Source of the DNA: Patescibacteria group bacterium UBA5147
GTDB taxonomy: Bacteria > Patescibacteriota > Saccharimonadia > UBA4664
DNA length: 64,000 nt
Direction: 5' to 3'
NCBI GenBank assembly: GCA_002415345.1
Contig: DHXV01000001.1
Coordinates: forward strand, 248,907-312,906
This document shows, in pieces, positions 23,804 through 64,000 of the stretch. Made by a program: the position numbers and the translations under genes. Numbering within the stretch: position 1 is the first letter of the stretch; the number at the start of each line of letters is the position of its first letter. The notes under the pieces were generated by a model. The model was given only the letters and a program-made list of their open reading frames with translations, ran no database searches and had not been told where the DNA came from.

Positions 23804-24589
23804 ATGCAACCCACGATTATAACCGCCCCCACCGAGACAGCCCGAAAGGCCCATAAGCAGCTGCAGGCGGCTCTCGAAAGCACCACGCTCCACCTGGACC
23901 GACCGGTCGTCTTTGCGGTGGGCGGCGACGGCACCATGCTGCGCGCCATCCGCGAATCCTGGCAAGACGACCCGATATTCGTCGGTATAGCGGCTGGCCA
24001 TTTGGGATTTTTGCAGGCCTTTGAACCCGAGCAAATCCCGGAGGTCCTGACTGCCCTTAACACGCTTAAGCCACAGACGATTTCCGCCCCGCTGATCGCG
24101 GCCTGGGACCAAACTGGCCAGCCCTTTGGCTACGGTTTCAACGACATTTCACTGGAACGCTCCGGGGCGCGGGCCAGCCGGTTCCATTTGGACATCGATG
24201 GTTCAACCGGCAGTTTCATCGGCGACGGCGTCATCTTTGCGACGGCCTTCGGGTCCACCGCCTATTCGTTGGCGGCCGGCGGCCCCGTCATCGATTCGCG
24301 CCTCCGCGACGTCTTTGTGGTCACCCCCAACAATCCGCACGTCTCAACCCAATACTCCAGCCTCCAGCGCCCGCACGTCCTGCAGCGCGGGCGCCAGGTT
24401 AAACTGCATCTGACAACCGAGGACGCCGTCGAGCGGCCGACCCAGCTCGTCATCGACGGCAATACGGTCGAGAAGCAACTCACTGGGACCGTGACCATAG
24501 CTCTGTCGAATAAGACCATCTCCTTTTTACAGCTTGAGGCCGACAGCTTCCATGCGCGACTCGATGCCAAGCGGCTGGGGCGATCATGA
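23804..24589 (+). CDS. nadK: NAD kinase
   Basis: GGDGT motif (VVFAVGGDGTMLRAI), NE/D motif, DGxxxxTxxGSTAYSLAAGGP. Confidence 0.85.
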   Translation: MQPTIITAPTETARKAHKQLQAALESTTLHLDRPVVFAVGGDGTMLRAIRESWQDDPIFVGIAAGHLGFLQAFEPEQIPEVLTALNTLKPQTISAPLIAAWDQTGQPFGYGFNDISLERSGARASRFHLDIDGSTGSFIGDGVIFATAFGSTAYSLAAGGPVIDSRLRDVFVVTPNNPHVSTQYSSLQRPHVLQRGRQVKLHLTTEDAVERPTQLVIDGNTVEKQLTGTVTIALSNKTISFLQLEADSFHARLDAKRLGRS

Positions 24590-35917: not shown

Positions 35918-36283
35918 TCATTCCAAATAGTTGACGTATAGACTGACGAGGTTGGGTGACGGCCTCGGCCTGGCGGCATATATCATAAAAATCAATGCCA
36001 GAAGCGCGGGTAAGACTAAACTCACAACTTGAGCTACGGCGGCGTTCAGTAATTGCCCTGTCTGCTGGATAACCGGCAGAACATTATGGATTGGCACGTT
36101 TGACAGGCAGCTACTCAAGCAATCGGCACTGCCGTGCTGCATCATCACAGTATGGTCGCCAGTGATCTGCATAGTAATGGCCACAAAACCGGTCAGGCTC
36201 AGTGGGATGGTGATTAGAATTGCCGCGACCAGGCGCGTTACTCGGTTCATAACACCATTATACCCTAATACGATTCGGGTCAA
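35918..36283 (-). CDS. Small membrane protein, hypothetical
   Basis: 121 aa with 2 TM helices and several Cys (CLSSC). 4-nt overlap with the upstream gene. Confidence 0.35.
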
Positions 36284-48840: not shown

Positions 48841-50058
48841 GTGGCAAAAAATGGCCTTGCCGACTACAATATGGCTACTATGCTGGAAAAATCGATTATC
48901 TCAGCTTTGTTCAGGCGATTGCGGGTTGGTGGAGTGCGCGTAATCGACTGGACGGGCGGCGAGGCGACCTATGGCCCCGGCGAGCCCTATTTGACCCTGC
49001 ATATTCACCACCCCAGGGCGATTCGGGCCATGATGCGCAGCCTGACCCTGGGTTTTGGCGAGAGTTACATGAAGGGCGATATCGATATCGACGGCGATAT
49101 CCGCCGGCTGGGCGAGCTGGTGTCCCAAAACCAGGCGGCCTTCAGTCATCCGGCGCTTAACCGTCTACCGCACGTCGGCCGCCGCAACACCAAGCGCCGA
49201 CAGCGCAAATTCGTGGCCCACCACTACGACCTGGGCAACGATTTCTACCGGTTGTGGCTCGATAAGACCATGACTTATTCCTGCGCCTACTTCAAGTCGC
49301 CATCCGACGCTCTGGAAGCGGCCCAGGCCCAAAAGCTCGCCCACACCCTGGCCAAGCTCCAGTTAAAACCCGGCATGAGGCTGCTCGACATCGGTTCGGG
49401 CTGGGGCCAACTGTTGATTGCGGCCGTCCAGGCCTACGACGTGACCGGCCATGGCATCACCCTGAGCCAGGAGCAGTACGACCTGTCGCGGCAGAAGATC
49501 AAGGACCTGGGACTTGAGGACAAGATCACCATCGAGCTCATCAATTACCAGGATCTGGCGGCCCGCGACCTGACGTTTGACCGCGTCATCTCGGTGGGGA
49601 TGTACGAGCACGTCGGCCGGGGCAACCACCGCCAATACTTCAAAGCCGTGCATAAGCTGTTGGAACCGGGCGGTATTTCCCTGCTCCACACCATAACCAA
49701 CGAGCTGGAGACCAAGAGCGACCCCTGGATCGACAAGTATATTTTCCCCGGCGGCTATATCCCGTCGATTCGCGAAACCGTCCACGTTATGCCCGAATTC
49801 GACCTGCGGCTGCAGGATTTTGAGAACCTGCGGCTCCACTACGCGCTGACGCTTGATGAATGGCTGAAGCGGTACGACGAAAATTCGGCGGCCATTATCG
49901 CCAAGTACGGAACCAGTTTTTATCGGATGTGGCGGCTCTATCTGGCCGGCTCAATTACCGGCTTCCGCTACGACAACCTGAGCCTGTCCCAGTTCGTCAT
50001 GACCAAAGGACTGGTCAACGACGCCCCGTTGACCCGGGACTTCCTCTACCACCCCTAA
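48841..50058 (+). CDS. cfa: Cyclopropane-fatty-acyl-phospholipid synthase family methyltransferase
   Basis: SAM motif LLDIGSGWGQL. CFA/mycolic-acid cyclopropane synthase C-terminal pattern (YDVTGHGITLSQEQ). 405 aa. Confidence 0.85.
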   Translation: MAKNGLADYNMATMLEKSIISALFRRLRVGGVRVIDWTGGEATYGPGEPYLTLHIHHPRAIRAMMRSLTLGFGESYMKGDIDIDGDIRRLGELVSQNQAAFSHPALNRLPHVGRRNTKRRQRKFVAHHYDLGNDFYRLWLDKTMTYSCAYFKSPSDALEAAQAQKLAHTLAKLQLKPGMRLLDIGSGWGQLLIAAVQAYDVTGHGITLSQEQYDLSRQKIKDLGLEDKITIELINYQDLAARDLTFDRVISVGMYEHVGRGNHRQYFKAVHKLLEPGGISLLHTITNELETKSDPWIDKYIFPGGYIPSIRETVHVMPEFDLRLQDFENLRLHYALTLDEWLKRYDENSAAIIAKYGTSFYRMWRLYLAGSITGFRYDNLSLSQFVMTKGLVNDAPLTRDFLYHP

Positions 50059-50974: not shown

Positions 50975-52771
50975 CTAATTAAACTGTTTTTGTACCGGGA
51001 AATCGAGGCTGGACTGGTAGAAAGTGTTGATGGTGTCGGTCGAGGTGACGGCGCCGGCTAGGTCCAGCACGTCGCGGTAGAAGACGGTGTGGGAGGCCTT
51101 GGTGACATCATTGGAGCCGGTAACGAACTGCGGGCCGCGGATGACGCCGGACTTGGTCTTGGTGCCGTAGTAATCGAACGTCAGCGTGGTACCGACCATC
51201 GTGGTCTGGATCAGGATGTAGCCGGGGGTATCGTTCTTGAATTTGAAGTCGACCTGCGGGTAGTAAATGGTGGCATCGACCCCCGGGACGCCGTAGGGCG
51301 TGGTGTAGTAGCTGATGGCAAAGGAGTGGTTGTGGCGCTCCAAAATCGGCAGGCCGGCTAGCAATGCGGCGCGGTAGGCCGTCGAGGACACCTGGCACAG
51401 GCCGCCGCCGTACTGCTTCTCCTCGTGGTCGCCCAGGATGACCAGCTCCGGTACGTAGCCGGTCTGCGGTCCGACGTCGCCCAGCAGGGCGCCGAAGCTG
51501 AAGACCTCACCGGGCTTGAGCAAGACGCCGTTGAAGCGGTTGGCCCCGGCCCGCACGTTAATCAGCCGGGTAGAGGGCGAGCCCGGGAAGAAGGTCTTGC
51601 CTTCGGAAATGAGTTCCTTGATGCCCAGCTGGTCCAGATTGTCCGACCGGACGTCGGCCTGGGTGATGGTGGCCTTTAAGGTCAGGTCGCGGCTGCCGCT
51701 GAGGCCGATGGCGGTGATGATGGCGGCGGTTGCGGCGGACTGGTCCAGCTTGAGGCCGTCTTGGGCGGGGCGGGTCACGGTCAGGGCCCCGTTCTGCATT
51801 GAGATGACGGCGTTCTGGGGCGCTTGGTCCACCTTGTTGGCGAGATCAATGACGTATTTTGACACCTGGGTCTTGTCGAGGCCCAGCGACAGGCTGGCCG
51901 GCGCCGGGAACAGGTCCTCGAGCTTGAGGGTGGTCAAGAAGTCGCGCTGGGGAGGCTGGGTGACGTTGATCCAGGTGGCGATGGTCGGTTGGGTGACTTC
52001 CCGGCTGGAAGTGCCATATTTGAGCTGGATCGGGGCGGACAGGTAGATGCCTGCCTGCTCGGCGGTCTTCTTGAGCTCGTCGGAGCTGATGGCGGCCGAC
52101 AACCGGTACACCGGGGCGGGCAAGGAACTGACATCGGTGGTGCGGAGGCGGTCCTGGATCATCTGGAGCAGCTGGCCCATGTCCAGGCGGTCGCCGGTTT
52201 TGGATTCGGTGATTTTGACGGCGCCGTTGCCGTAATCCAGGCCGGCGTTGGCCACGGGCGTCACCACGTCGTCGACGATATCGGAGATGTAGGGCCGGAG
52301 CTTGGTCTCGTCGTAGGAGTACTTGTCGAAGCTGGTGCTGCCGCCCAGCAGCGCCCGGGCCTGCTCCTTGGCCTGCTGCAAGATACCGCCGCGGCGGCCG
52401 TAGGCGTAGGCCGATACTGCCCCGCCGGCCGCGTCGTAGGTCACGCCCAGCGAGTTGACCGGAATCCGCACCGTGGTCGAGCCGTAGGTAATGGGCAGCG
52501 CGTGCCCGGAGAAATCCGCAATCTTGTCCGACAAGGCGCGTCCGGCCGAGGTCTTGGACAGCCCGCCCAGGTACACGCCGTCGGCGCTAACGCCCGGGTA
52601 CACCTTACCCGCGTACACCAGCTCAAAGCTGCCGACGAGGAGCAATAACACCACGAAAGCCCCGCCCGTGAGCCTGACCACCAGGGGCAGTCGTTTGGTT
52701 TCAGCCGGTTGATCGGTGTCGGTTGTCTCGTCCATAGTGTCGTTAGCCATTAGTAACATTATGCCATACAT
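50975..52771 (-). CDS. VanW-family protein (membrane-anchored)
   Basis: C-terminal VanW-domain motifs (YGGGLCQVSSTAYRAALLAGLPILERHNHSF). 598 aa with an N-terminal TM. Confidence 0.7.
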   Translation of the reverse strand: MYGIMLLMANDTMDETTDTDQPAETKRLPLVVRLTGGAFVVLLLLVGSFELVYAGKVYPGVSADGVYLGGLSKTSAGRALSDKIADFSGHALPITYGSTTVRIPVNSLGVTYDAAGGAVSAYAYGRRGGILQQAKEQARALLGGSTSFDKYSYDETKLRPYISDIVDDVVTPVANAGLDYGNGAVKITESKTGDRLDMGQLLQMIQDRLRTTDVSSLPAPVYRLSAAISSDELKKTAEQAGIYLSAPIQLKYGTSSREVTQPTIATWINVTQPPQRDFLTTLKLEDLFPAPASLSLGLDKTQVSKYVIDLANKVDQAPQNAVISMQNGALTVTRPAQDGLKLDQSAATAAIITAIGLSGSRDLTLKATITQADVRSDNLDQLGIKELISEGKTFFPGSPSTRLINVRAGANRFNGVLLKPGEVFSFGALLGDVGPQTGYVPELVILGDHEEKQYGGGLCQVSSTAYRAALLAGLPILERHNHSFAISYYTTPYGVPGVDATIYYPQVDFKFKNDTPGYILIQTTMVGTTLTFDYYGTKTKSGVIRGPQFVTGSNDVTKASHTVFYRDVLDLAGAVTSTDTINTFYQSSLDFPVQKQFN

Positions 52772-53907: not shown

Positions 53908-55086
53908 ATGGTTTTGAATAAACCTGCCGCCCAATTCACCGCCCGACTGAACTCGCTGGATATCCTGCGGGGCTGGTTCCTGGTGGTCATCGCCTGCGAC
54001 CACCTCATCCGCATCCCCAGCATGTTCGACCTGGTTACCGGCCGCGGTTTGCTCTGGGTCAGCGCCGCCGAGGGGTTCTTCTTTATTTCCGGGATGCTCG
54101 TGGGCATCGCCCGCGGCCGGCAGATGCAGCTCTCCGGCCTCAAAGCCGCCGCCATGCACGTGTGGGCCCGCGCCGGCAAATTATACGTGGCCAGCGTCGT
54201 CCTGACATTCGCCTACCTCTTCCTGGGCTACTGGCTCCAGTCCCGCGGTGTCAACGCCATCAAGGGCGGCCTGACGCACTTTTCGACCGTCGGCGATATG
54301 CTCTACAACGTCCTCAACCTTAATTACACCTATGGCTGGGCCGATTTCCTCAGTTACTACGCCGTCTTCCTGGGCCTGGCGCCCCTGGCCCTGTGGCTGC
54401 TGCGCCGTAAGTTGTGGTGGGTCATCGTGTGGGTCAGCCTGACGCTCTGGCTCATCAAGGGCGAAGTTACCCTGCCGTTTCTGAGTTTCTACGCCCTGTG
54501 GCAGGTCTACTTCTTCCTCGGGCTGGTCTTTGGCTACCACTACCACTCGCTGCGATCCTACTACCGCCTGCTGACGCCGCGCACCATCCAACTCCTGCGC
54601 CTCGGCCTCATTACGGCCACCGTCGCCACCGTCGTCGCCAGCATCGCCTTCACCTTCGGCACGCCGTTCTTCGCGCGCTACGGCCCAGGCTACGCGGGAC
54701 TGCTGCAACTGCTGCACCTGCCCTCGCCGCAAACGTTCTACGACTTCTTCAACAGCGTCAAAGAGAACGAAACCTTCAAGGAACTCTTCCAGAACGAGCG
54801 CGGCGGCCTCCTGCGACTGCCGATATTCCTGTTGTGGTTCGGTTGCCTCTTTTCATTGGTGCGACAGTATGAGGACTGGGTCGTCGCTAAGGTCGGTTGG
54901 CTGCTGCTGCCGTTGGGCAAGAATTCGCTCTACGTCTACATCATCCAGAGCGTCCTGGCCTTCGGCGTGCCTCTCCTGTACCTGCCGTTCGGCTACGTCG
55001 AGAATACTTTCATCAACATCGCGGCCGTCCTGATCTGCTGGGTGGCGGTGAAGCGGCGGTTTTTGTTTGCGCTCATTCCGCGTTAG
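53908..55086 (+). CDS. Acyltransferase-3/OpgC-like polytopic membrane protein
   Basis: 392 aa with ~10 TM helices. N-terminal LDILRGWFLVVIACDH pattern of acyltransferase 3 / DUF1624. Confidence 0.5.
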   Translation: MVLNKPAAQFTARLNSLDILRGWFLVVIACDHLIRIPSMFDLVTGRGLLWVSAAEGFFFISGMLVGIARGRQMQLSGLKAAAMHVWARAGKLYVASVVLTFAYLFLGYWLQSRGVNAIKGGLTHFSTVGDMLYNVLNLNYTYGWADFLSYYAVFLGLAPLALWLLRRKLWWVIVWVSLTLWLIKGEVTLPFLSFYALWQVYFFLGLVFGYHYHSLRSYYRLLTPRTIQLLRLGLITATVATVVASIAFTFGTPFFARYGPGYAGLLQLLHLPSPQTFYDFFNSVKENETFKELFQNERGGLLRLPIFLLWFGCLFSLVRQYEDWVVAKVGWLLLPLGKNSLYVYIIQSVLAFGVPLLYLPFGYVENTFINIAAVLICWVAVKRRFLFALIPR

Positions 55087-55149
55087 CCAAACGACAGTAT
55101 TTTTCGTAATATGTAATCGTTCATCTATTAACCTACCCGGGGAGGGTTC

Positions 55150-55608
55150 ATGAGCATCGATACAGCTAGCTTTCTGGATTCAATCGACAAATCAGGCTTC
55201 AGTATTGAGCCTCATTCTCGCATCGTGCCCAAGCCCTGGGGCCGCGAGCTGCTCCTGACGGCCGATTCCGAGCCCTACACCATGAAGATCATCGAGATCA
55301 ACCAGGGGGCTCGTCTCAGCCTGCAGGCTCATGACCAAAAGACTGAAACGTGGACAGTCCTCAAAGGCCGCGCCGGGGTCATGATCGAAGACGAGACCGG
55401 CAAGCTCCAGGAAATCGAGCTCACCTACGGTGTCGGTTACACTACCAAACTCGGCCAGCGCCACCGCCTCTACGGCATCACCGACTGCGCCATCGTCGAA
55501 GCTTCCACCCCGGAGCTTGGCACTACCCTGCGCCTGGAGGACGACTACGCCCGGCCGGACGAAACCGAAGCCATGCGTAAAGAACCCAACCGCGGCTACT
55601 CCGCATAA
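55150..55608 (+). CDS. Cupin-2 domain protein (mannose-6-phosphate isomerase type II C-terminal domain-like)
   Basis: 152 aa. WGRELLL...QAHDQKTETWTVLKGRAGV cupin motifs. Convergent with the mannose-1-P guanylyltransferase gene. Confidence 0.6.
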   Translation: MSIDTASFLDSIDKSGFSIEPHSRIVPKPWGRELLLTADSEPYTMKIIEINQGARLSLQAHDQKTETWTVLKGRAGVMIEDETGKLQEIELTYGVGYTTKLGQRHRLYGITDCAIVEASTPELGTTLRLEDDYARPDETEAMRKEPNRGYSA

Positions 55609-55616
55609 CACAAAAC

Positions 55617-55645
55617 CCCGGCAGATTGCCGGGGTGTTTTATTGT
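55617..55645. terminator. Bidirectional intrinsic terminator (AACCCCGGCA-GAT-TGCCGGGGTGTTTTATTG)
   Basis: 8-bp GC stem plus a T-run between convergent genes. Confidence 0.65.
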
Positions 55646-55654
55646 GCAGTGACT

Positions 55655-56710
55655 TTAAATTGTCGTTTTTCGAGTAGCTAGTTTCTTGGACAGCTCCCCA
55701 ACGAGCTGGGACTTCTCCTTGGAGCAGACGAGCAGCCCGTCTGGAGTGTCCACCACCACGATCCCCGACAGGCCAATTGCAATGATGGGCTTTGTGGTTG
55801 CGTGAATCATGGAATCCTCACACTCAATCATATGCACATCACCTTCAATTGCGTTACCATCGGTTGCTGCTTCACTCAGAATTTTATGAAGATCAAAGAA
55901 TGAACCGATATCGGCCCAATCAAAGCTGCCGGGTATTACGACTAAATTAGGCGTCTTTTCAATGAGAGCAGTGTCGATGGGGTGGCTTTCCAGCGCCAAA
56001 TAGGCGGCAGACTGAGCAGGTTCGTCACCATTTGTCGCTAGCAGATCATGGTAGGCTTTGCCCAAATCGGGTGCATAACGATCCATGTCGTGTTCGAAGA
56101 CTTCGATAGACGAGGCAAACAATCCCAGATTCCATAAGTAGTGTCCGGATTCCAAATACGCTTCCGCAACATCAACCGCCGGCTTCTCCTTAAAGGAAGT
56201 TACTTTATAAACCGGAAGTCCCCCCTCAACCGCCAGCTCTTCACCATATTGGATATAACCGAAACCTGTTGCCGGAAAGGTCGGCTGCAAACCTATGAGG
56301 GCGATTGCATGACGTGTTTTTGCGGCGCCAGCAGCAGCCCGTACGGTTAGAGCAAAACCTTCCGCATCGGTAATATGATGATCCGCATGGAGAAATACCA
56401 CCTCTTCCGATTCGGAATGATGTTGGCGTAATCGAGCCAAGGCCAAAGCAATACAAGAAGCCGTACCTCGGCGCCCGGGTTCAATGATGAGCTGGTGCGA
56501 CTCCAGGCTAGGCAGCTGTGTCGCTACTTCATCACTATGAGAAGCCTCAGTCACAACATACACTTCATTACCAATGAGCTTAGCTCGCTTGTATGTATTT
56601 TGCAGTAATGATGATTCACCGGTCAATGCCAGCAAGTGTTTGGGGTGATTGCCCTGCGAGAGGGGCCAGAGGCGAGTCCCAGATCCTCCGGCTATAATTA
56701 CGATAACCAT
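55655..56710 (-). CDS. manC: Mannose-1-phosphate guanylyltransferase (nucleotidyltransferase domain only)
   Basis: N-terminus VIIAGGSGTRLWPLS. 351 aa. GMPP-type C-terminal region. Confidence 0.8.
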   Translation of the reverse strand: MVIVIIAGGSGTRLWPLSQGNHPKHLLALTGESSLLQNTYKRAKLIGNEVYVVTEASHSDEVATQLPSLESHQLIIEPGRRGTASCIALALARLRQHHSESEEVVFLHADHHITDAEGFALTVRAAAGAAKTRHAIALIGLQPTFPATGFGYIQYGEELAVEGGLPVYKVTSFKEKPAVDVAEAYLESGHYLWNLGLFASSIEVFEHDMDRYAPDLGKAYHDLLATNGDEPAQSAAYLALESHPIDTALIEKTPNLVVIPGSFDWADIGSFFDLHKILSEAATDGNAIEGDVHMIECEDSMIHATTKPIIAIGLSGIVVVDTPDGLLVCSKEKSQLVGELSKKLATRKTTI

Positions 56711-56784: not shown

Positions 56785-57336
56785 ATGAAGCGTCCGAGCA
56801 AACATTTTCTCATCGTCTCAGGTGTCCTGATTACTTTGGGCCTCGCTGGCGTAGCGTACTCGATGTATTCAGGAAAAATACAGATTCACAATACCACCGT
56901 CAACCCCGCCCAGGGGAGCTCGACGCCCATACCAAGCCCGGGTACAGCCGGTAACCCGGGTGATGCTGCCAAGAGCACCATTGGTGCGTCAACGAACCCG
57001 GCTACCCCCACACCTGCCAAGTCAGCGGCACCCTCATCGTCAGTCCTCACAATCTCCGACTTTACGCTTACACCCCAGAAAGGCAGCGGAAAGGTCTTCA
57101 TTACAAGCCAAATTTCCGGTATCACATCCGGTACCTGTTCATTGGTTTTGACTTCGCCCAGCTCTAAGACTCAAACAGCCGGCGGAACCATTGATTATGA
57201 CGGCCACTTCTACTTCTGCAGCATGAGCCTTATAAGCGGCGTGACTGAAGCTGGCACCTGGAGCGGAAAGCTCAATGTAAGCGGTCCCGGTAATGCCAGC
57301 GGCAGCCTAAGCACTCAATTCGTGGTGGCGAACTAA
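56785..57336 (+). CDS. Secreted Ser/Thr/Gly-rich hypothetical protein
   Basis: Signal anchor LIVSGVLITLGLAGVAYSMYS. 183 aa. Confidence 0.45.
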   Translation: MKRPSKHFLIVSGVLITLGLAGVAYSMYSGKIQIHNTTVNPAQGSSTPIPSPGTAGNPGDAAKSTIGASTNPATPTPAKSAAPSSSVLTISDFTLTPQKGSGKVFITSQISGITSGTCSLVLTSPSSKTQTAGGTIDYDGHFYFCSMSLISGVTEAGTWSGKLNVSGPGNASGSLSTQFVVAN

Positions 57337-57340
57337 ACCG

Positions 57341-59497
57341 ATGAGAATCACCCGCACCCTATCCACCCTTATAGCCGGCCTCGGCATCGTAGCTTCAACC
57401 CTGGTCTTTGCCGGTAATGCCAGCGCCATAACCGGCGCCGATTTCCAAGCGGGGCGCATCATAGACGACGGAGTCTTTTTTGACGGATACGCCATGAGCG
57501 CTCAGCAAATCCAGTCGTTTCTCTTTACCCAGGTTCCAACGTGTGACACCAATGGCACTCAAATTTTTATTGGGTATTACAACGGAACAGATACAAGCGT
57601 CACGCCGAATGTAAATCACTCCAAGTTCGCAGGCGGCCATACCTATACGCTTAGTGACAATGTCAAACGCAGCGATCTTGATAACCGCTACCCTGCTCCT
57701 TATACCTGCCTCAAGGACTATGTCGAAAACCCCACCACCCACGAAAACAACATCGGCCGCCCAACCTATGTTGTTCCCGGGGGTATGTCCGCTGCCAGCA
57801 TCATCGCGTCCTCGGCTCAAGCCTACAACATCAGCCCCAAGGTCTTACTGACGCTGATTCAAAAGGAATCCATCGGTCCCCTGACCACCGATGACTGGCC
57901 CTGGCCAAATGAGTACGTCCATCCGACTGGTTTCGCCTGCCCCGACACTGCAGCCTGCGATAGTACGTACAATGGCTTCTACAACCAAGTCAACAGTTCC
58001 GCTGCACAATTCCGCAAATATACCAACAACCCAACAAGTTATAACTATCGAATCGGCACTAACCAGATCCTATATAGCCCCGTTACTACAACCTGCCCTA
58101 ATCCGACGCGCGCGACAGTCAATATCGTCAACCAGGCGACCGCCGACCTCTACATTTACACTCCATACACCCCTAACCAGGCTGCGCTCGACAATCTTTA
58201 CGGTACGGGCGACGGTTGTAGTGCTTATGGTAATCGCAATTTTTGGCGAATTTACAATGATTGGTTCGGGAGCACATTAATTCCAAACTACGCCTGGAGC
58301 ATACAGAATATAAGCGTTAATGCTGACTTAGGAAATATGCTGCCCGGGCAGACGGCTACCTTTACCTATACCCTGATGAACACTGGTTCATCTACTTGGT
58401 CGCGGGATGGTTCCAATCCAGTGCGACTAGGAACCGCCAATCCTCAAGATCGCAACAGTGTATTCTGCAACTCCACTTGGCTTGGCTGCAACCGACCGGC
58501 AAGCATGCTCGAAGCAAGCGTACCCACAGGCAGCACCGGAACCTTCAGCTTTATAATCAAAGCCCCCTCCCAGACAGGCGAATATCGCGAGTACTTCAAG
58601 CCCGTGGTCGAAGGGCTAACGTGGTTCCCTGACAGTACCAACAACGTTTACATCAAAGTGGTTCCACCAGTTTATTCCTACAGCGTCAAAGGTCAGGGCG
58701 CCTTCACTGATTCCACTAAGACGACTCCTCTGGACTCTTCGCAATTAAGCCCTGGGCAGTCAGGCTGGTATACCTTAAAAATCACCAACACCGGCAACGT
58801 GGCGTGGTCGAACTCAGGAGCCAATCCTATGGATCTTGGTACCGATGGCGCCCGTGACAGGTCAAGTCGTTTTGCTGGGAGTGGCTGGTTAGGTCCTAAC
58901 CGCCCTGCCAGGCTTATTGAAAGCATCGTTCTGCCAGGACAAGATGGTACGTTTGAATGGTCATTCGTAACTCCTGCAGCCAACGGTATATCACGTGAAT
59001 ACTTCACTCCCGTTATTGAAGGTGTTACATGGCTCAACGCCACAGGACTCAACTACTACGCTCTCTTGAACGGGGCCTATTCATGGTCGCTGGCTGGCCA
59101 GTATGCCTATACCGATAGTTCAATGCTTACGTCCATTGATTTGGCCAACCTCCGATCCGGCCAACGAGTTTATGTGGGGATACGCGCAAAGAACACCGGC
59201 ACGGCAACATGGTATTCGGAAGGCATTTATCCTATGCATCTTGGTACTACACACTTCATAGACAGGCTAAGCCCGTTCTGTGACGCCTCATGGATTGGGT
59301 GCAACCGTCCGGCTAGCTTGAAAAATGCTTCAGATGCGTCCAAAACATCAGTTGCACCCGGTGAAACCGCCGACTTCGGATTCTGGTATAAAGCCCCGAC
59401 TAAAACCGGGACATACTACGAATATTTTAACCCCGTTGCGGAAAACATCACTTGGTTAAATGACTTGGGAGTAAATCACTATACTGTGGTTAAATAG
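57341..59497 (+). CDS. Secreted multi-domain protein: signal peptide, ~270-aa Cys-containing N-terminal domain, then ~3 copies of a ~110-aa repeat (W-x-GxNP-x-LGT...DR-x-S-x-F...WLGCNRPA...GTF-F...Y-EYF-PV-EG-TWL)
   Basis: 718 aa. Signal peptide MRITRTLSTLIAGLGIVASTLVFAGNASA. The repeats are shared with the downstream paralog. Confidence 0.6.
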   Translation: MRITRTLSTLIAGLGIVASTLVFAGNASAITGADFQAGRIIDDGVFFDGYAMSAQQIQSFLFTQVPTCDTNGTQIFIGYYNGTDTSVTPNVNHSKFAGGHTYTLSDNVKRSDLDNRYPAPYTCLKDYVENPTTHENNIGRPTYVVPGGMSAASIIASSAQAYNISPKVLLTLIQKESIGPLTTDDWPWPNEYVHPTGFACPDTAACDSTYNGFYNQVNSSAAQFRKYTNNPTSYNYRIGTNQILYSPVTTTCPNPTRATVNIVNQATADLYIYTPYTPNQAALDNLYGTGDGCSAYGNRNFWRIYNDWFGSTLIPNYAWSIQNISVNADLGNMLPGQTATFTYTLMNTGSSTWSRDGSNPVRLGTANPQDRNSVFCNSTWLGCNRPASMLEASVPTGSTGTFSFIIKAPSQTGEYREYFKPVVEGLTWFPDSTNNVYIKVVPPVYSYSVKGQGAFTDSTKTTPLDSSQLSPGQSGWYTLKITNTGNVAWSNSGANPMDLGTDGARDRSSRFAGSGWLGPNRPARLIESIVLPGQDGTFEWSFVTPAANGISREYFTPVIEGVTWLNATGLNYYALLNGAYSWSLAGQYAYTDSSMLTSIDLANLRSGQRVYVGIRAKNTGTATWYSEGIYPMHLGTTHFIDRLSPFCDASWIGCNRPASLKNASDASKTSVAPGETADFGFWYKAPTKTGTYYEYFNPVAENITWLNDLGVNHYTVVK

Positions 59498-59503
59498 CTG
59501 TTT

Positions 59504-62341
59504 ATGAGCACTCTGGGTTCTAGGAAATACACAAAATTAGTAGCGGCGCTTACCCTAGTTACCACAGTTACGAGTGTATTACTATCTTTGTATTATTCGG
59601 CTACTTCAACTATAAAATCAGAGACGATTCCCGTTCAAGGAAACTTAATAACTGCCCCCGCCGTCATTACATTGAAGCCGCAAGAGAATCGCACCCGCTT
59701 CTCATCACAAACATTTAAGGCCAAGTACCAATACAACGCTATTGCTCCTCACTGGAAGGAGTCTGGAGCCAGCGATGATAACCGCACCGTTTCGGTTCGC
59801 ACTTCACTCAACGGGCTTGAATGGAGTGAGTGGGCGAAAGTTGAAGCTATGCGGCCGCAAAAAGATGGAGCACCGCACTCGGACGAAGTCTTTCCGGAAG
59901 CCCCAATTATTACGTTGGGCAACTATTTCCAATATCGCGTAGATCTATCGCGCCCCGGTTCAACAACTCCGGCCGTCCGCGACATGACCATAACTTATAT
60001 CGATTCCCGCCCTACAACTGCTCAAAAAATCAGCTCGGCGCTTTATTCATTCTTTGCTCCTTCGGTAACTGCGTCCGGAACCGTTCCTAGGATCATTTCC
60101 CGTGCCGACTGGGGTAGCCCCGACCCGACTGGTAACGCCTTCCATGGCACGGACCAATATTGGACGCCTCAATACCACCCTGTCGGACAAGTATTCATAC
60201 ATCACACCGTTGATTCCAACTATAAATCACAGACCGACGGCGCCTCATTGGTGCGGGCAGTATGGCAATACCACACCTACACCCTGGGTTGGGGTGACAT
60301 TGGCTACAACTATCTGGTAGACGAGAGCGGTAATGTGTACCAGGGACGTGCCCATGGCGACAACATAGACGGCGGCCATGTCTATGGCTACAACTCTGGA
60401 TCGATGGGCGTAGCGCTGCTTGGATGCTTCCAGCCAAACGACTCAACGTGCGCGCAGCTAAACAACTACTCCACCGCTGGTCCCTCCAGCCCAATGCTGA
60501 CTGGCCTGACGGACTTGCTGGCATACAAATTAACAAGCTATGAAATTGATCCCGAGGCACAGCATACCTTCTGTAAGGGCGATGGCTCTGCATGCCTCAA
60601 CCTCAACACGATTAGCGGCCACCGCGACGCCTACCCAACATCCTGCCCGGGCGATTTGGCCTACGCCGACCTTCAATACGTTCGCGACACTACTGCGGCT
60701 AAAAAGGAGCAGGGTTTTCGTTACTCAGCTAAACAGACCACATTTCCTGAAACCTCTCTCGGCGACAAGACAGAGTCGACTATAACCCTGAGTTATAAAA
60801 ACACCGGGACCGCCACATGGTTCAGCCCCATTAGCGGGCAGCCGAATCCTGTTGTCCTTGGTACAGGAAATGTTACTGACCACGTTTCTGTGTTTCAGGG
60901 CACTGGCTGGCCATCAAATACGCGCGCAGCTTTCCTGAACGAGCTAAGTGTAGTTCCGGGAGCCATTGGGACATTCACTTTTAATATCAAAAATCCTCTG
61001 GGTTATTACGGGAAATATTATGAATATTTTCGACCGCTGGCTGAAGGTTTGACCGACTTCTCATCATTCACAGGTGTACCTATTCTGACACGTAGCCTAT
61101 CTTACGATATAACCTCACAAGAGGCGTACACCAACAGCAGTAAAGCAACGCCGCTTAATATGGACAGCTTATCGCCGGGGCAGAGTGGGTGGCTCGTACT
61201 CAAGATTAAGAACACAGGCAATACTACCTGGAATAGAGACGGCATTAATCCTATTCATCTTGGCACCGACGTAACCCAAGATAATGCAAGCCCATTCTGT
61301 GCCGTCGGATGGCTGGGCTGCAATAGGCCGGCGAAGCTTATCGAAGCGACCGTAACCCCCGGCCAAACTGGAACATTTGAGTGGCCAATTACTGTCCCAA
61401 ATATCTCAGGAGTTTATCGCGAATATGTTACACCAGTTATGGAGGGAGTGGGATGGCTTAACTCAACTGGCCTAAACTTCTATATGAACATAAACCACGG
61501 ATACACCTGGTCGTCTGCCGGCCAGTATGCCTACTCCGACAGCACCAAGACGACTAGCGTCGACCTACTCTCGCTTTCTCCTGGACAGAAAGTGTATGTT
61601 GGCTTACTAGCAAGGAATACTGGCGATACTATATGGTATCGAGACGGTTTATACCCAGTGCATCTTGGAACAACTCATAATATAGACAGAAGCAGTAGTT
61701 TCTGTGACACGACTTGGCAAAGCTGCAATCGACCGGCCCAACTAGTAAATGCATCAGACACAACAAAAACTAGTGTTTCACCGGGCGAAATGGCGGATTT
61801 TGGATTTTGGTACGTAGCGCCAGGACCGGGAACTTACTATGAATATTTCAATCCTGTCGTCGAAAATATTACCTGGATGAACGATCCAGGGGTTAATCAT
61901 TACACCCATGTAAACGGGGGGTACAATTGGGAGGTTGCTGGTCAATATGCCTATACGGACAACACCAAGAAGATAGGAGCGGACCTGACAAATCTATCGC
62001 GTGGCCAGCGTGTCTATGTCGGAATCCTCGCTAAAAACACGGGCGACACTGTTTGGTACCAAAATGGGCGTTACCCGGTTAATCTCGGTACATCTTCACC
62101 TTTAGACCGCTCCAGCAGGTTCTGTGAAAGCACTTGGCTTGGGTGCAATAGACCCGTGGCCATGAAAAATTCAGTAGATTACTCAAAAATATCAGTTAGA
62201 CCGGGCGAAATAGCTGAATTTGGATACTGGTATACCGCCCCTCAAGAAATCGGCACATACTTTGAAGGATTTACTCCGGTTGCCGAGAACCTTGGATGGC
62301 TCAAAGATATTGGAGTAAACCACTATTCAGTAGTTAAATAG
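59504..62341 (+). CDS. Membrane-anchored cell-wall hydrolase: N-acetylmuramoyl-L-alanine amidase (Amidase_2/PGRP) domain followed by ~5 copies of the same ~110-aa repeat
   Basis: Amidase_2 motifs (HHTVDSNY...GWGDIGYNYLVDESGNVYQGR...GGHVYGYNSGSMGVALLG...ISGHRDAYPTSCPGD). N-terminal TM. 945 aa. Lower GC (~45%). Confidence 0.65.
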   Translation: MSTLGSRKYTKLVAALTLVTTVTSVLLSLYYSATSTIKSETIPVQGNLITAPAVITLKPQENRTRFSSQTFKAKYQYNAIAPHWKESGASDDNRTVSVRTSLNGLEWSEWAKVEAMRPQKDGAPHSDEVFPEAPIITLGNYFQYRVDLSRPGSTTPAVRDMTITYIDSRPTTAQKISSALYSFFAPSVTASGTVPRIISRADWGSPDPTGNAFHGTDQYWTPQYHPVGQVFIHHTVDSNYKSQTDGASLVRAVWQYHTYTLGWGDIGYNYLVDESGNVYQGRAHGDNIDGGHVYGYNSGSMGVALLGCFQPNDSTCAQLNNYSTAGPSSPMLTGLTDLLAYKLTSYEIDPEAQHTFCKGDGSACLNLNTISGHRDAYPTSCPGDLAYADLQYVRDTTAAKKEQGFRYSAKQTTFPETSLGDKTESTITLSYKNTGTATWFSPISGQPNPVVLGTGNVTDHVSVFQGTGWPSNTRAAFLNELSVVPGAIGTFTFNIKNPLGYYGKYYEYFRPLAEGLTDFSSFTGVPILTRSLSYDITSQEAYTNSSKATPLNMDSLSPGQSGWLVLKIKNTGNTTWNRDGINPIHLGTDVTQDNASPFCAVGWLGCNRPAKLIEATVTPGQTGTFEWPITVPNISGVYREYVTPVMEGVGWLNSTGLNFYMNINHGYTWSSAGQYAYSDSTKTTSVDLLSLSPGQKVYVGLLARNTGDTIWYRDGLYPVHLGTTHNIDRSSSFCDTTWQSCNRPAQLVNASDTTKTSVSPGEMADFGFWYVAPGPGTYYEYFNPVVENITWMNDPGVNHYTHVNGGYNWEVAGQYAYTDNTKKIGADLTNLSRGQRVYVGILAKNTGDTVWYQNGRYPVNLGTSSPLDRSSRFCESTWLGCNRPVAMKNSVDYSKISVRPGEIAEFGYWYTAPQEIGTYFEGFTPVAENLGWLKDIGVNHYSVVK

Positions 62342-62393: not shown

Positions 62394-63641
62394 GTGTCGT
62401 GCTTCATGGAAAAACTAAAGCACTTGGATGGACTCCGCGGCCTTGCTTCGCTTATCGTGGTCATTCATCACTATGCATGTGCATTTTTACCCGCAATTGT
62501 CTTCGGATCGCAAGCGGTTAGGCATTTTCCGTTCGAGGTGTATCTTTATAGCACACCTCTTTCGCTATTTTTTAATGGCAATTTCGCCGTGACGGTATTC
62601 TTTGCTCTGAGTGGCTTCGTACTGACATACCGATTCTTTCTAAAGCAAGATCACGAAATTCTAGTTCGTAGTGCTGCAAAACGATATTTCCGATTAATGC
62701 CCCCAGCAGCAGTTTCGATACTAGCGGCCTATATTATCCTGAAGACGGGAAATTTTTATAACCTTCAGATTGTTACATCTACGCACTCGTCAATGTGGAT
62801 GGCCGATATCTGGAATTTTACCGCAAGCGCAAAAGAAGCAGCAAAACAGGCACTTTACGGGGTGTTTATATCCGAAAATCATACATATAACACCAATTTA
62901 TGGACAATGAAATATGAGTTCATGGGTTCCTTCATGGTTTTTGGAATCGCTAGCTTATTCGGCAAGATGCAACGTAGGTACTTGGTATATGCGGTTCTCT
63001 GCCTTGTTTTCATAAAATCATACTACTTAAGTTTTGTCCTAGGCATGGCAGTAGCTGATATTTGGGTCACAATGCGCGACAATGAGCGTTTCAACCGAAT
63101 CGCATCAAGTATCGCCCCCTTAAGCATGCTGTTAGGTTTACTGGTGGGTAGCTATCCATTGCGGAACACTTCGGACACTGTTTTTTCTGCGCTCTCACTC
63201 ATCCCCCTACTTACCCATGACGAGCTTTTTGTTTTCTGGCACAACCTCGGAGCAGTTCTCTTAGTTGCAGGTTTTCTTTACAGCTATAGGGCACGGCACA
63301 TCTTCTCAAGCCGAATCTTTGCTATGCTTGGTAAGCACTCATTCTCTCTCTATCTGGTACACCTTATCGTTATTGGTTCGTTTTCTAGTTACCTGTTCAT
63401 TGCGCTTTCCACGCAATTCGGATATCTGACTAGTTTGATTCTAATGTTCATTATTTCCATGGTTCTCATTTTTGCCATTTCAATTCTTTACACCCGATAT
63501 GTCGATGAGCCTTCCACATTGCTCGCTTCCAGAATTGGTAACTTTGTTGTGCGGAAATCTAATTCCAGCCCAAATAAAGCACAGACGGTCACGGCAATTC
63601 CTCAACAACTAAAGTCTACCCCCTCAGTAGTACAACAATAG
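62394..63641 (+). CDS. Acyltransferase family 3 (OafA/OatA-like O-acyltransferase) membrane protein
   Basis: N-terminal LDGLRGLASLIVVIHH motif. ~10 TM helices. 415 aa. AT-rich. Confidence 0.7.
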   Translation: MSCFMEKLKHLDGLRGLASLIVVIHHYACAFLPAIVFGSQAVRHFPFEVYLYSTPLSLFFNGNFAVTVFFALSGFVLTYRFFLKQDHEILVRSAAKRYFRLMPPAAVSILAAYIILKTGNFYNLQIVTSTHSSMWMADIWNFTASAKEAAKQALYGVFISENHTYNTNLWTMKYEFMGSFMVFGIASLFGKMQRRYLVYAVLCLVFIKSYYLSFVLGMAVADIWVTMRDNERFNRIASSIAPLSMLLGLLVGSYPLRNTSDTVFSALSLIPLLTHDELFVFWHNLGAVLLVAGFLYSYRARHIFSSRIFAMLGKHSFSLYLVHLIVIGSFSSYLFIALSTQFGYLTSLILMFIISMVLIFAISILYTRYVDEPSTLLASRIGNFVVRKSNSSPNKAQTVTAIPQQLKSTPSVVQQ

Positions 63642-63650
63642 GACTCAAAG

Positions 63651-64000
63651 AATGAACATTAACAAACAATTCAAAAATGTATTAAAACTAGCCAACACCA
63701 GAACCGCGCGATCGTCGCTCATTATTTTCGCAGCAAGTATTTTTGCAGCTCTACTATCGTTCGTGGTAGCGTACTTCGCATCCCGACTGCTTGGTCCGTC
63801 TGATTACGGTCGCCTGGCAATTGCCAACGCAATTATTGCAATAGTTGTTGGGGTTACAGACTTCGGTCTAGCCACAACCCTTGTCAAACACACCTCACAT
63901 CGCCTCGAAGACAGGCTGAAAACGGCTCCTTTTTTCCAAACAGTATTCTGCATAGAGCTGGCGTTAGGTCTACTCATCTTAATTGCATGCCTGTTCACCA
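63651..64000 (+). CDS. Partial (5' end) polysaccharide-biosynthesis/flippase-like membrane protein, runs off the window
   Basis: ATG at 63651 (MNINKQFKNVLKLANTRTARSSLIIFAASIFAALLSFVVAYFASRLLGPSDYGRLAIANAIIAIVVGV...). Wzx/MOP-like N-terminus. No stop codon within the window. Confidence 0.4.

What the first reader, a model, noticed from the sequence alone, without database searches (positions are those of the whole stretch)
57341..62341. Two adjacent paralogous envelope proteins (one carrying a peptidoglycan amidase) share a novel ~110-aa tandem repeat with a conserved WLGCNRPA motif
The 718-aa and 945-aa products end with 3 and ~5 copies of a repeat with invariant positions: W-x-(S/R)-x-G-x-(N/Y)P-x-x-LGT...DR-S-x-F...(W/T)WLGCNRPA-x-L...PG-x-x-G-x-F-x-F...Y-x-EYF-x-PV-x-EG-x-TWL-x-x-x-G-x-N-x-Y.

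The second protein pairs the repeats with an Amidase_2/PGRP catalytic domain, suggesting a cell-wall-binding or targeting module. I cannot assign the repeat to a named family (it is not SH3b, LysM, CW_binding, SLH or PG_binding).

The block has lower GC than the backbone and continues into acyltransferase and flippase genes.
Basis: seen in the sequence. Interest (0 to 1): 0.55.

Follow-up and report, generated by a model that had tools for sequence, protein, structure and literature searches.

The report
NBR1-type Ig repeats on wall hydrolases
Two neighbouring secreted cell-wall-cutting enzymes of a Saccharibacteria (TM7) genome end in 3 and 4 copies of a repeat that is not new but a divergent bacterial form of the already named NBR1/"FW" Ig-like domain (Pfam PF16158), most likely serving to hold or aim the enzymes at the cell wall.

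Summary

The source is a Saccharimonadia genome. The gene for the first protein, preceded by a small conserved partner gene, always sits in a surface-polysaccharide locus. The repeat subfamily is mostly fused to peptidoglycan hydrolases, so a wall-targeting role is plausible but untested.

Verdict: a new member of a known kind, of modest interest.

The parts
56785..57336 (+). Small membrane-anchored partner protein (183 aa): an N-terminal TM helix, a Ser/Thr/Pro-rich linker, and a ~90-aa domain with two invariant Cys. It lies 4 nt upstream of P1.
   Evidence: ORF. No Pfam or PHROG hit. A homologous gene sits immediately upstream of the P1 homologue in all 5 other contexts examined.
57341..59497 (+). 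P1 (718 aa): signal peptide, lysozyme-like domain, then 3 FW (NBR1-like Ig) repeats.
57341..57427 (+). P1 predicted Sec signal peptide (aa 1-29, ...NASA|IT).
   Evidence: Hydrophobic stretch at aa 6-28. 'ASA' is conserved across the family. The cleavage site is inferred by eye, not by a predictor.
57428..58276 (+). P1 lysozyme-like (GH73/GH23-like fold) putative peptidoglycan glycosidase domain (aa 30-312). It has an invariant E176 at the end of helix 166-176 and six invariant Cys.
   Evidence: - AF2 pLDDT 87.5.
- Foldseek gives the same set, but not significant.
- Invariant residues.
- E176 is replaced by K/Q in the extra copies of tandem-array relatives.
- No Pfam, NCBIfam or PHROG model matches.
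58277..58684 (+). P1 FW repeat 1 (aa 313-448).
58685..59089 (+). P1 FW repeat 2 (aa 449-583). It lacks the Cys pair.
   Evidence: PF16158 18.7 bits. Alignment.
59090..59494 (+). P1 FW repeat 3 (aa 584-718).
   Evidence: PF16158 25.3 bits. Alignment.
59504..62341 (+). P2 (945 aa): N-terminal TM anchor, a domain of unknown function (aa ~41-187), a PGRP/T7-lysozyme-type amidase, then 4 FW repeats.
59534..59596 (+). P2 single N-terminal hydrophobic helix (aa ~11-31): a signal anchor or an uncleaved signal peptide.
   Evidence: Hydropathy analysis. No obvious AXA cleavage site (by eye).
60065..60676 (+). P2 N-acetylmuramoyl-L-alanine amidase domain (Amidase_2/PGRP type, aa ~188-391). The Zn-ligand motifs IHHT (232-235), GHRD (372-375) and CPG (381-383) are intact.
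   Evidence: PF01510 58.1 bits. PGRP3 4zxm E 3.9e-20 and T7 lysozyme 1lba E 6e-7. Motif positions. PHROG endolysin/amidase families.
60707..61108 (+). P2 FW repeat 1 (aa 402-535). It is the most divergent copy (WPSNTRAA), with no Cys pair.
   Evidence: No individual Pfam hit, but the repeat HMM scores 158.8 bits. Alignment.
61109..61513 (+). P2 FW repeat 2 (aa 536-670).
   Evidence: PF16158 19.8 bits. 57% identical to P1 repeat 2.
61514..61933 (+). P2 FW repeat 3 (aa 671-810).
   Evidence: PF16158 13.8 bits. 69% identical to P1 repeat 3.
61934..62338 (+). P2 FW repeat 4 (aa 811-945).
   Evidence: PF16158 14.7 bits. 59-61% identical to P2 repeat 3 and P1 repeat 3.
62394..63641 (+). Acyl_transf_3 membrane acyltransferase (415 aa), same strand, 52 nt downstream of P2.
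   Evidence: PF01757 77.7 bits.
63655..64000 (+). N-terminus of a Wzx-type polysaccharide flippase (Polysacc_synt). It runs off the end of the window.
   Evidence: PF01943 38.3 bits and PF13440 38.8 bits. The same gene follows the P2 homologue in L003.
53908..56710 (.). Upstream sugar-nucleotide and glucan genes of the same conserved locus: OpgC-like acyltransferase (53908-55086, +), mannose-6-P isomerase-type cupin (55150-55608, +), and ManC-type NTP transferase (55655-56710, -).
   Evidence: Same order in L003.

Best explanation
The locus encodes two extracytoplasmic peptidoglycan hydrolases of a Saccharimonadia (Saccharibacteria/TM7) bacterium. They are co-oriented and almost abutting, inside a cell-surface polysaccharide operon.

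- **P1** is a secreted enzyme with a lysozyme-like glycan-cleaving domain. E176 is the probable catalytic acid.
- **P2** is a membrane-anchored, Zn-dependent N-acetylmuramoyl-L-alanine amidase of the PGRP/T7-lysozyme type.

Both end in a head-to-tail array of 3 (P1) or 4 (P2) Ig-like beta-sandwich domains. These belong to a divergent bacterial subfamily of the known FW / NBR1-like domain (PF16158). The subfamily has a ~12-residue insertion and an adjoining loop (P-x-DR-x-S-x-F-x4-W-x3-NRPA). This loop carries most of the subfamily's invariant polar and aromatic residues, and a disulfide staples it in about a third of copies.

The arrays most likely act as the non-catalytic targeting or retention module of these autolysins. 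They would bind a repeating cell-wall ligand, either peptidoglycan or the wall-associated polysaccharide made by the neighbouring genes, so that catalysis is confined to the cell's own envelope during growth and polysaccharide assembly.

**Shown:** the gene structures, the domain identities and folds, the repeat number, extracytoplasmic signals, taxonomy, synteny, and the fusion partners of the repeat.

**Inferred:** enzymatic activities, the ligand-binding role of the repeats, and the identity of the ligand.
For: **Repeat identity**
- PF16158: 62.3 and 39 bits against a gathering score of 28. 6 of 7 copies hit in register.
- The only significant PDB sequence hit of the family profile is NBR1 4OLE (E 0.0019).
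- AF2 model pLDDT 96.3.
- hhalign 94%, E 1.5e-7.

**Extracytoplasmic location**
- N-terminal hydrophobic signals.
- The Cys64/Cys71 pair covaries: both present in 267 repeats, one alone in 3, neither in 487.

**P2 amidase**
- PF01510, PGRP and T7 lysozyme matches with an intact H/H/C motif set, and endolysin PHROGs.

**P1 glycosidase**
- AF2 pLDDT 87.5.
- E176 is invariant in 44 homologues.
- In relatives with 3-4 tandem copies of this domain, usually only one copy keeps E176, while D184, W186 and the Cys are retained.

**Targeting role**
- Of the 150 best subfamily representatives, 52 carry the P1-type domain and 20 carry Amidase_2.
- 48 of the rest were scanned with Pfam. Among those with a recognised extra domain, the commonest is SpoIID (10), alongside M23, CHAP and C39_2.
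- SpoIID + Amidase_2 + FW triple fusions exist.
- Close amidase homologues carry FG-GAP/VCBS or other modules in place of the FW array.
- The same catalytic domain is alternatively accompanied by apparently dead copies of itself.
- No other known wall-binding domain is present.

**Housekeeping context**
- The small partner gene plus P1 lies inside ManC / GT4 / Wzx-Wzy or Wzm-Wzt loci in all 6 contexts examined.

**Taxonomy**
- ATP synthase beta is 80-83% identical to named Ca. Saccharimonadia proteins.
Against: - No binding or activity data exist for any bacterial FW domain, and I found none in the literature.
- The repeat is also fused to non-wall enzymes: subtilases (7), GSDH (4) and glycosidases, of the 48 scanned. 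It may therefore be a general extracellular module.
- P2 already has a membrane anchor, so it does not need the array for retention.
- In eukaryotes the FW domain binds proteins, not glycans (PMC9233695).
- The acidic pocket residue used there is not conserved here.
- Foldseek support for the lysozyme-like fold of P1 is not significant (best E 0.24).
- No sequence model of GH73, GH23 or SLT matches P1.
- I could not inspect model coordinates, so I do not know whether the conserved loop residues form one surface patch.
Confidence: 0.6

Rival explanations
1. The FW arrays are passive spacers. A rigid string of 3-4 Ig-like domains would simply project or space the catalytic domains through the thick envelope or S-layer, with no specific ligand.
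For: - The repeats abut with no flexible linkers, and copy number varies from 2 to 14 between relatives. This is typical of stalk-forming Ig domains.
- The repeat is also fused to unrelated enzymes (S8 proteases, GSDH, GH1).
Against: - Residues in loops are invariant or nearly so across 757 repeats: N35, W41, S61, W68, R73, E105, W116. That is more than a scaffold needs.
- The arrays are C-terminal, distal to the catalytic domain and to P2's membrane anchor. They therefore do not sit between the anchor and the enzyme.
- In close homologues they are exchanged for other known binding-type modules.
Confidence: 0.17
2. As in eukaryotic NBR1, the FW domains mediate protein-protein recognition. One candidate ligand is a free N-terminal peptide of a partner: the conserved small upstream protein, an S-layer or pilus subunit, or a free amino terminus of a peptidoglycan stem or bridge peptide.
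For: - The only mechanistically characterised FW domain binds a free N-terminal Gly-Gly in a pocket between beta1 and beta6 (PMC9233695).
- The aromatic at the W763-equivalent position is kept as F107 (82%), next to the near-invariant E105.
- A conserved small partner gene always precedes P1.
Against: - Only 1 of the 4 signature Trp residues is retained.
- The position aligned to the pocket Asp is variable: N 26%, D 26%, G 15%.
- The strongest conservation lies in a subfamily-specific insertion that NBR1 lacks.
- The small partner is present with P1 but not needed for the many other FW fusion proteins.
Confidence: 0.1
3. The two enzymes are host-directed weapons of an epibiotic Saccharibacterium. 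The FW arrays would recognise the host (e.g. actinobacterial) surface, and the hydrolases would breach the host wall for attachment or feeding.
For: - The window is from Saccharimonadia, whose cultivated members are obligate epibionts on Actinobacteria (PMC10633639 abstract).
- The amidase resembles phage endolysins.
Against: - The same architectures occur in Chloroflexi (Dehalococcoidia, Anaerolineae), which are not known epibionts.
- P1 is embedded, with conserved synteny, in the cell's own surface-polysaccharide biosynthesis locus.
- There is no secretion-system or immunity-gene context, although the small upstream protein could in principle be an inhibitor.
- P2 is anchored to the producer's membrane.
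Confidence: 0.1
4. One reading: a genuinely novel ~110-aa repeat family unrelated to any named domain.
For: - Individual copies score below the Pfam gathering threshold in 6 of 7 cases, and one copy gives no hit at all.
- The eye-catching motif lies in a region that NBR1 lacks.
Against: - Whole-protein PF16158 scores are above the gathering threshold.
- NBR1 and ILRUN FW domains are the top two structural matches.
- The profile-profile probability is 94%.
- Precomputed PF16158 annotation is present on thousands of relatives, along with NCBI 'NBR1-Ig-like' names.
Confidence: 0.03

Closest known systems
FW / NBR1-like Ig domain (Pfam PF16158 N_BRCA1_IG; human NBR1 PDB 4OLE, ILRUN PDB 6VHI; Chaetomium Nbr1 FW, PMC9233695)
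   Same: - It is detected by the Pfam model above threshold.
- It shares the 'KNTG..W' and 'AP..G.Y' blocks.
   Different: - It is extracytoplasmic and in tandem arrays of 3-4, whereas eukaryotes have a single cytosolic copy.
- It has a ~12-aa insertion plus the W-x3-NRPA loop, with an optional disulfide.
- Only one of the four name-giving tryptophans is kept.
- The pocket Asp is not conserved.
- It is fused to wall hydrolases rather than to PB1/ZZ/UBA autophagy-receptor domains.
Previously described bacterial FW proteins (XRE-FW transcription regulators; Marchbank et al. 2012, PMC3357945)
   Same: They are bacterial members of the same domain family. The FW domain is at or near the C-terminus.
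   Different: Those proteins are cytoplasmic, with one FW domain after a helix-turn-helix. Here the proteins are secreted or anchored, carry repeated FW domains, and have peptidoglycan hydrolase catalytic domains. Saccharibacteria were not among the clades listed in that paper.
Modular Gram-positive autolysins and endolysins with repeated C-terminal wall-binding domains (LytB/LytA choline-binding repeats, Atl GW/SH3b, CWB2, SLH, LysM)
   Same: - The overall logic is the same: a signal peptide, a catalytic domain (glycosidase or amidase), and a tandem array of non-catalytic repeats.
- Repeat modules are exchanged between paralogues.
- The genes are adjacent to wall-polymer biosynthesis genes. 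From general knowledge, this resembles CWB2 proteins next to the PSII locus, or SLH proteins with csaB.
   Different: The repeat is none of those families. Binding to any wall polymer has not been demonstrated.
GH73 endo-beta-N-acetylglucosaminidases and GH23 lytic transglycosylases / g-type lysozyme (LytB 7PJ3, Acp 5WQW, AtlE 4PI7, MltE 4HJY)
   Same: - They are the best structural matches of the P1 N-terminal domain.
- P1 has an invariant Glu at the C-terminal end of a helix, as in lysozyme-like enzymes. This is the residue selectively lost in the extra copies of tandem-array relatives.
   Different: - No sequence-model match to PF01832 or PF01464, even at E <= 10.
- Three conserved disulfides.
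- Extra beta-hairpin insertions.
- Foldseek E-values are not significant.
PGRP / T7-lysozyme type N-acetylmuramoyl-L-alanine amidases (Pfam PF01510)
   Same: The P2 domain matches at E 1.5e-15 (Pfam) and 4e-20 (PGRP3), with the His/His/Cys Zn-binding motifs intact.
   Different: It has an extra ~150-aa N-terminal domain of unknown function, a membrane anchor, and four FW repeats.

Membership tests
Pfam PF16158 N_BRCA1_IG (FW / NBR1-like domain) | Score at or above the curated gathering threshold (28 bits) of the family HMM | tested here: met
   P1 scores 62.3 bits and P2 39 bits. For single copies: 31.2, 18.7, 25.3, none, 19.8, 13.8 and 14.7 bits, all in register on profile positions ~5-90.
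Pfam PF16158 N_BRCA1_IG (FW / NBR1-like domain) | Ig-like beta-sandwich fold closest to solved FW domains | tested here: met
Pfam PF16158 N_BRCA1_IG (FW / NBR1-like domain) | Four conserved tryptophans (the 'FW' signature) | tested here: not met
   In the hhalign alignment to the human NBR1 FW domain, only W41 is retained. The others align to non-Trp residues (L51, F107, and a variable position ~32). The subfamily has its own invariant W68 and W116.
Pfam PF16158 N_BRCA1_IG (FW / NBR1-like domain) | Conserved acidic/aromatic pocket between beta1 and beta6 that binds a free N-terminal dipeptide (PMC9233695) | tested here: inconclusive
   The aromatic at the W763-equivalent position is kept (F107, 82%), and E105 is 93% conserved. 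The position aligned to pocket residue D658 is variable (N 26%, D 26%, G 15%). Beta1 was not alignable.
Pfam PF01510 Amidase_2 (PGRP / T7 lysozyme amidase) | HMM score above the gathering threshold, and presence of the Zn-ligand His, His, Cys | tested here: met
   58.1 bits against a threshold of 26. IHHT at 232-235, GHRD at 372-375 and CPG at 381-383 align to PGRP3 and T7 lysozyme.
Pfam PF01510 Amidase_2 (PGRP / T7 lysozyme amidase) | Amidase activity on MurNAc-L-Ala | not testable with these tools
   Requires a biochemical assay.
GH73 (Pfam PF01832 Glucosaminidase) / GH23 (PF01464 SLT) lysozyme-like glycosidases | Match to the family sequence model | tested here: not met
   No Pfam hit for P1 aa 1-320 apart from a chance DUF at E 0.11, even with max E = 10. 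No NCBIfam, PHROG or PDB sequence hit.
GH73 (Pfam PF01832 Glucosaminidase) / GH23 (PF01464 SLT) lysozyme-like glycosidases | Lysozyme-like alpha/beta fold with the catalytic Glu at the end of a helix | tested here: inconclusive
- Foldseek ranks the same set first, but the best E is 0.24.
- E176 ends helix 166-176 and is invariant.
- E176 is replaced by K/Q in the supernumerary copies of tandem-array relatives.
- This supports superfamily-level similarity, not membership of a specific GH family.
Known bacterial cell-wall-binding repeats (SH3b, LysM, SLH, CW_binding_1/2, PG_binding_1-4, GW) | Match to any of these Pfam models | tested here: not met
   None are listed for P1 or P2 at E <= 0.1, or for single repeats at E <= 10.

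The most novel reading that the evidence does not exclude
The disulfide-stapled, insertion-bearing bacterial FW subfamily is a previously unrecognised class of cell-wall-binding module. Its ligand would be peptidoglycan or a wall-linked polysaccharide.

- It would be the main way that Saccharibacteria, and also Chloroflexi, target their autolysins.
- It would be evolutionarily related to the cargo-recognition domain of the eukaryotic autophagy receptor NBR1.
- The conserved pair of small anchored protein plus lysozyme-like/FW enzyme in every polysaccharide locus would be a dedicated machine coupling wall cleavage to surface-polysaccharide assembly.
Probability: 0.3. Interest if true: 0.55.

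Novelty: new member of a known kind. Interest (0 to 1): 0.3.

Why it matters
As posed (a novel repeat), the finding does not hold. The domain has been in Pfam, CDD and InterPro for years, and thousands of relatives already carry the label.

What remains of value is contextual:
- **No assigned function in bacteria.** Bacterial FW domains have no experimentally assigned function. Here a large, well-defined subfamily is seen mostly on peptidoglycan hydrolases of ultrasmall Saccharibacteria and of Chloroflexi. This gives a concrete, cheaply testable hypothesis for what the domain does outside eukaryotes, and possibly for what the ancestor of the NBR1 cargo-binding domain recognised.
- **An unmodelled catalytic domain.** The lysozyme-like catalytic domain is widespread (>3,900 hits), yet current sequence libraries miss it.
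- **A conserved gene pair.** The two-gene module is embedded in Saccharibacterial surface-polysaccharide loci. This is relevant to how these poorly understood epibionts build and remodel their envelope.

Tried and rejected
- **Source genome:** The search for related loci in genome contigs with P2 returned only two distant Saccharibacteria loci.
- **Organism names:** The listing of cluster members on 10 'other-architecture' representatives gave no organism names and almost no product names, so the taxonomic spread of the non-hydrolase fusions stays unknown.
- **afdb50:** this fold library was unavailable.
- **PDB sequence searches:** nothing for the P1 N-terminal domain or for the small upstream protein profile.
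- **PHROGs:** no hit for the P1 N-domain, the repeat, or the small protein.
- **NCBIfam:** nothing meaningful.
- **Foldseek against PDB:** for the P1 N-domain it gave the right kind of hits, but none was significant.
- **Promoter/terminator scan of 56.5-64 kb:** nothing above shuffled expectation. The operon inference rests only on 4-52-nt gaps and shared strand.
- **Literature:** searches linking NBR1/FW to peptidoglycan, wall binding, Saccharibacteria or Patescibacteria found no relevant paper. The Saccharibacteria genetics paper PMC10633639 does not mention amidase, lysozyme or peptidoglycan.
- **Horizontally acquired low-GC island:** considered and rejected. GC is heterogeneous across the window, and the locus order is conserved across Saccharibacteria.
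- **Recent DNA-level duplication of the repeats:** considered and rejected. Copies are only 28-69% identical at the protein level, and they are collinear between P1 and P2.
Full report
**1. Observation**

- BLASTP of the two proteins shows strong similarity confined to the C-terminal parts: 56% identity over 383 aa, E 9e-138, plus off-register matches typical of internal repeats.
- Anchoring on the LGT motif and aligning gives seven copies. P1 has aa 313-448, 449-583 and 584-718. P2 has aa 402-535, 536-670, 671-810 and 811-945.
- The copies are 134-140 aa long and 28-69% identical.
- A profile built from the seven copies, run on the six-frame translation of the whole window, finds these 3 + 4 copies and nothing else.
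Three details need correcting: there are 7 copies rather than ~8, the period is ~135 aa rather than ~110, and the exact string WLGCNRPA is present in only 2 of 7 copies.

**2. What the repeat is**

- Pfam assigns both proteins to PF16158 (N_BRCA1_IG, the Ig-like "FW" domain of the autophagy receptor NBR1) with 62.3 and 39 bits, against a gathering score of 28.
- Scanned singly, six of the seven copies hit the same model in the same register. Only one of them is above threshold on its own.
- A profile of 49 family repeats has human NBR1 (PDB 4OLE) as its only significant PDB sequence match (E 0.0019).
- An AlphaFold2 model of P1 repeat 1, built on that alignment, is very confident (pLDDT 96.3, pTM 0.87).
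- hhalign against the human NBR1 FW sequence gives 94% probability (E 1.5e-7).
- The repeat is therefore an FW/NBR1-like domain by sequence and by fold.
- Database annotation already reflects this. Nearly all of the >3,900 P1 homologues carry a precomputed PF16158 hit, and some NCBI records are named "NBR1-Ig-like domain-containing protein".
- The literature has noted bacterial FW domains since 2011-2012, mainly as XRE-FW regulators, without assigning them a function (PMC3357945, PMC9582228, PMC9233695).

**3. What is particular about this subfamily**

"ANPQDRNSVFCN" is a 12-residue insertion, and the following "WLGCNRPA" aligns only nominally.
- In the model this whole stretch (residues ~55-74) is a long loop between strands 3 and 4.
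- Across 757 repeats extracted from relatives, the near-invariant positions are N35 (100%), W41 (100%), S61 (96%), W68 (99%), R73 (96%), F90 (97%), E105 (93%) and W116 (92%).
- The two cysteines flanking the loop covary almost perfectly: both present in 267 repeats, one alone in 3, neither in 487. This indicates an optional disulfide and hence an extracytoplasmic location.
- Only one of the four tryptophans that give the FW domain its name is kept (W41).
- The acidic pocket residue that binds a free N-terminal amine in Chaetomium Nbr1 aligns to a variable position.
- An exhaustive profile search of 1.84 billion representatives finds 5,074 proteins at E <= 1e-3 and 692 at E <= 1e-30, with 2-14 copies each. 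This is a sizeable, pre-existing family, not a local invention.

**4. The catalytic parts**

*P2*
- Residues ~188-391 are a PGRP/T7-lysozyme-type N-acetylmuramoyl-L-alanine amidase: PF01510 at 58 bits, PGRP3 at E 4e-20, T7 lysozyme at E 6e-7, and endolysin PHROGs.
- The Zn-ligand motifs IHHT, GHRD and CPG are intact.

*P1*
- Residues 1-320 have no hit in Pfam, NCBIfam, PHROGs or PDB sequences.
- They are nevertheless highly conserved in 44 aligned homologues, with an invariant E176, D184, W186 and six Cys.
- The AlphaFold model is confident (pLDDT 87.5).
- Foldseek ranks the same set first, but without significance (best E 0.24).
- E176 sits at the C-terminal end of helix 166-176, the canonical place for the catalytic acid.
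- Independent support comes from relatives made of three or four tandem copies of this domain with no FW repeats (P0012, P0013, P0037, P0099). Usually only one copy keeps Glu at this position. The others have K or Q while retaining D184, W186 and the cysteines.
- I conclude that P1 is a lysozyme-like wall glycosidase of a family not yet covered by sequence models. I do not claim membership of GH73 or GH23.

**5. Topology, organism and context**

- P1 starts with a typical signal peptide (...NASA|IT). P2 has a single N-terminal hydrophobic helix.
- ATP synthase beta from elsewhere in the window is 80-83% identical to proteins named Candidatus Saccharimonadia, Saccharimonadales or Saccharibacteria. 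Named P1 and P2 relatives come from the same group.
- The genes run small protein, P1, P2, acyltransferase, flippase on one strand with gaps of 4, 6, 52 and 13 nt.
- The closest relative (82% identity) has the same order, from OpgC through ManC, the small protein, P1 and P2 to Wzx and GT4 genes.
- Four more distant contexts keep the small protein plus P1 inside a polysaccharide locus, with either Wzx/Wzy or Wzm/Wzt export, but lack the amidase.
- The small proteins are homologous to each other.
- The block is thus a conserved envelope locus, not a recently acquired island. Its lower GC (0.49-0.52) lies within a generally heterogeneous window (0.435-0.644).

**6. Function of the repeats**

The evidence is indirect but coherent.
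- Of the 150 best subfamily representatives, 52 have the P1-type domain and 20 have the amidase.
- Of 48 others scanned, the most frequent recognised catalytic domain is SpoIID (10), with M23, CHAP and C39_2 also present. Subtilases (7), GSDH (4) and glycosidases occur as well.
- SpoIID + Amidase_2 + FW triple fusions occur.
- Close amidase homologues carry other C-terminal modules where P2 has the FW array.
- The P1 catalytic domain is alternatively accompanied by apparently inactive copies of itself.
- No other known wall-binding domain is present.
- This is the pattern of an interchangeable targeting module of modular autolysins. I therefore favour a wall-targeting or retention role (confidence ~0.6). 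The ligand is unresolved between peptidoglycan and the locus-encoded polysaccharide.
- The rivals are a passive Ig-like stalk, NBR1-style protein or N-terminal peptide recognition, and host-directed attack by an epibiont. None is excluded, and each is given a lower weight for the reasons listed in the rival explanations.

**7. Verdict**

The finding's headline, a novel repeat, is refuted. It is a divergent bacterial subfamily of a named domain, already annotated on thousands of relatives.

The functional guess of a wall-targeting module is reasonable and gains circumstantial support.

- P1's unmodelled lysozyme-like domain;
- the insertion and disulfide anatomy of the motif;
- the conserved pair of small protein and P1 in Saccharibacterial polysaccharide loci.

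Novelty: a new member of a known kind. Interest is modest (0.3), with a moderately interesting upside if the FW arrays prove to be a bona fide wall-binding module.

Noticed in passing
window 56785-57336 (+); also L003:4569-5063, L005:9483-10004, L008:7456-7992, L009:7446-7997, L010:7375-7992: A small (164-205 aa) protein with no hit in any library lies immediately upstream of every P1 homologue examined. It has a TM helix, a Ser/Thr/Pro-rich linker, and a ~90-aa domain with two invariant Cys and one invariant Trp. It could be an inhibitor, activator or anchor for the lysozyme-like enzyme.
   Followed up: partly
L003, L005-L007, L008, L009, L010: P1 homologues always sit inside a surface-polysaccharide biosynthesis locus (ManC, PMM, epimerases, GT4/GT2), whether export is by Wzx/Wzy or by a Wzm/Wzt ABC transporter. 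The amidase P2 accompanies P1 only in the window and in its closest relative.
   Followed up: partly
proteins P0012, P0013, P0037, P0099 (from; contigs of 380-730 kb): These proteins consist of a signal peptide plus 3-4 tandem copies of the P1-type lysozyme-like domain, with no FW repeats. Glu at the E176 position is kept in only one copy (two in P0037) and is replaced by K or Q in the others. This looks like one active domain plus several dead, possibly substrate-binding, copies.
   Followed up: partly
window 59504-59671 (start of P2) versus protein P0386: An identical protein in a JGI 286-kb contig is called 56 residues shorter (889 aa), which removes the N-terminal membrane anchor. The long form is supported by the 938-aa homologue in L003, so the JGI start call is probably wrong.
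   Followed up: no
window 50975-52771 (-): A 598-aa protein with two PG_binding_4 domains and a VanW domain is another wall-associated protein a few kb upstream. It shows that this genome also uses a classical putative peptidoglycan-binding domain.
   Followed up: no
window 36280-38499 (-), 28167-30032 (-), 24586-26181 (+): Three large ORFs (739, 621 and 531 aa) have no Pfam hit at E <= 1e-5. The latter two lie in the highest-GC part of the window (0.58-0.64), where long ORFs overlap on both strands, so their reality was not checked.
   Followed up: no
window 1-64000: GC content is strikingly heterogeneous for a small Saccharibacterial genome. It ranges from 0.435 (44-46 kb) and 0.44 (62-64 kb) to 0.64 (26-30 kb).
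   Followed up: no
window 48841-50058 (+): A cyclopropane-fatty-acyl-phospholipid (mycolic acid cyclopropane) synthase homologue (CMAS, E 1e-95) is present in a lineage generally thought to lack its own fatty-acid synthesis. This may be relevant to modification of scavenged lipids.
   Followed up: no
proteins P0431, P0434, P0450-P0453, P0473: Triple fusions SpoIID + Amidase_2 + FW repeats (~1,040-1,175 aa) occur in other uncultured bacteria. They combine a lytic-transglycosylase-type domain and an amidase domain on one FW-bearing polypeptide, where this window uses two adjacent genes.
   Followed up: no
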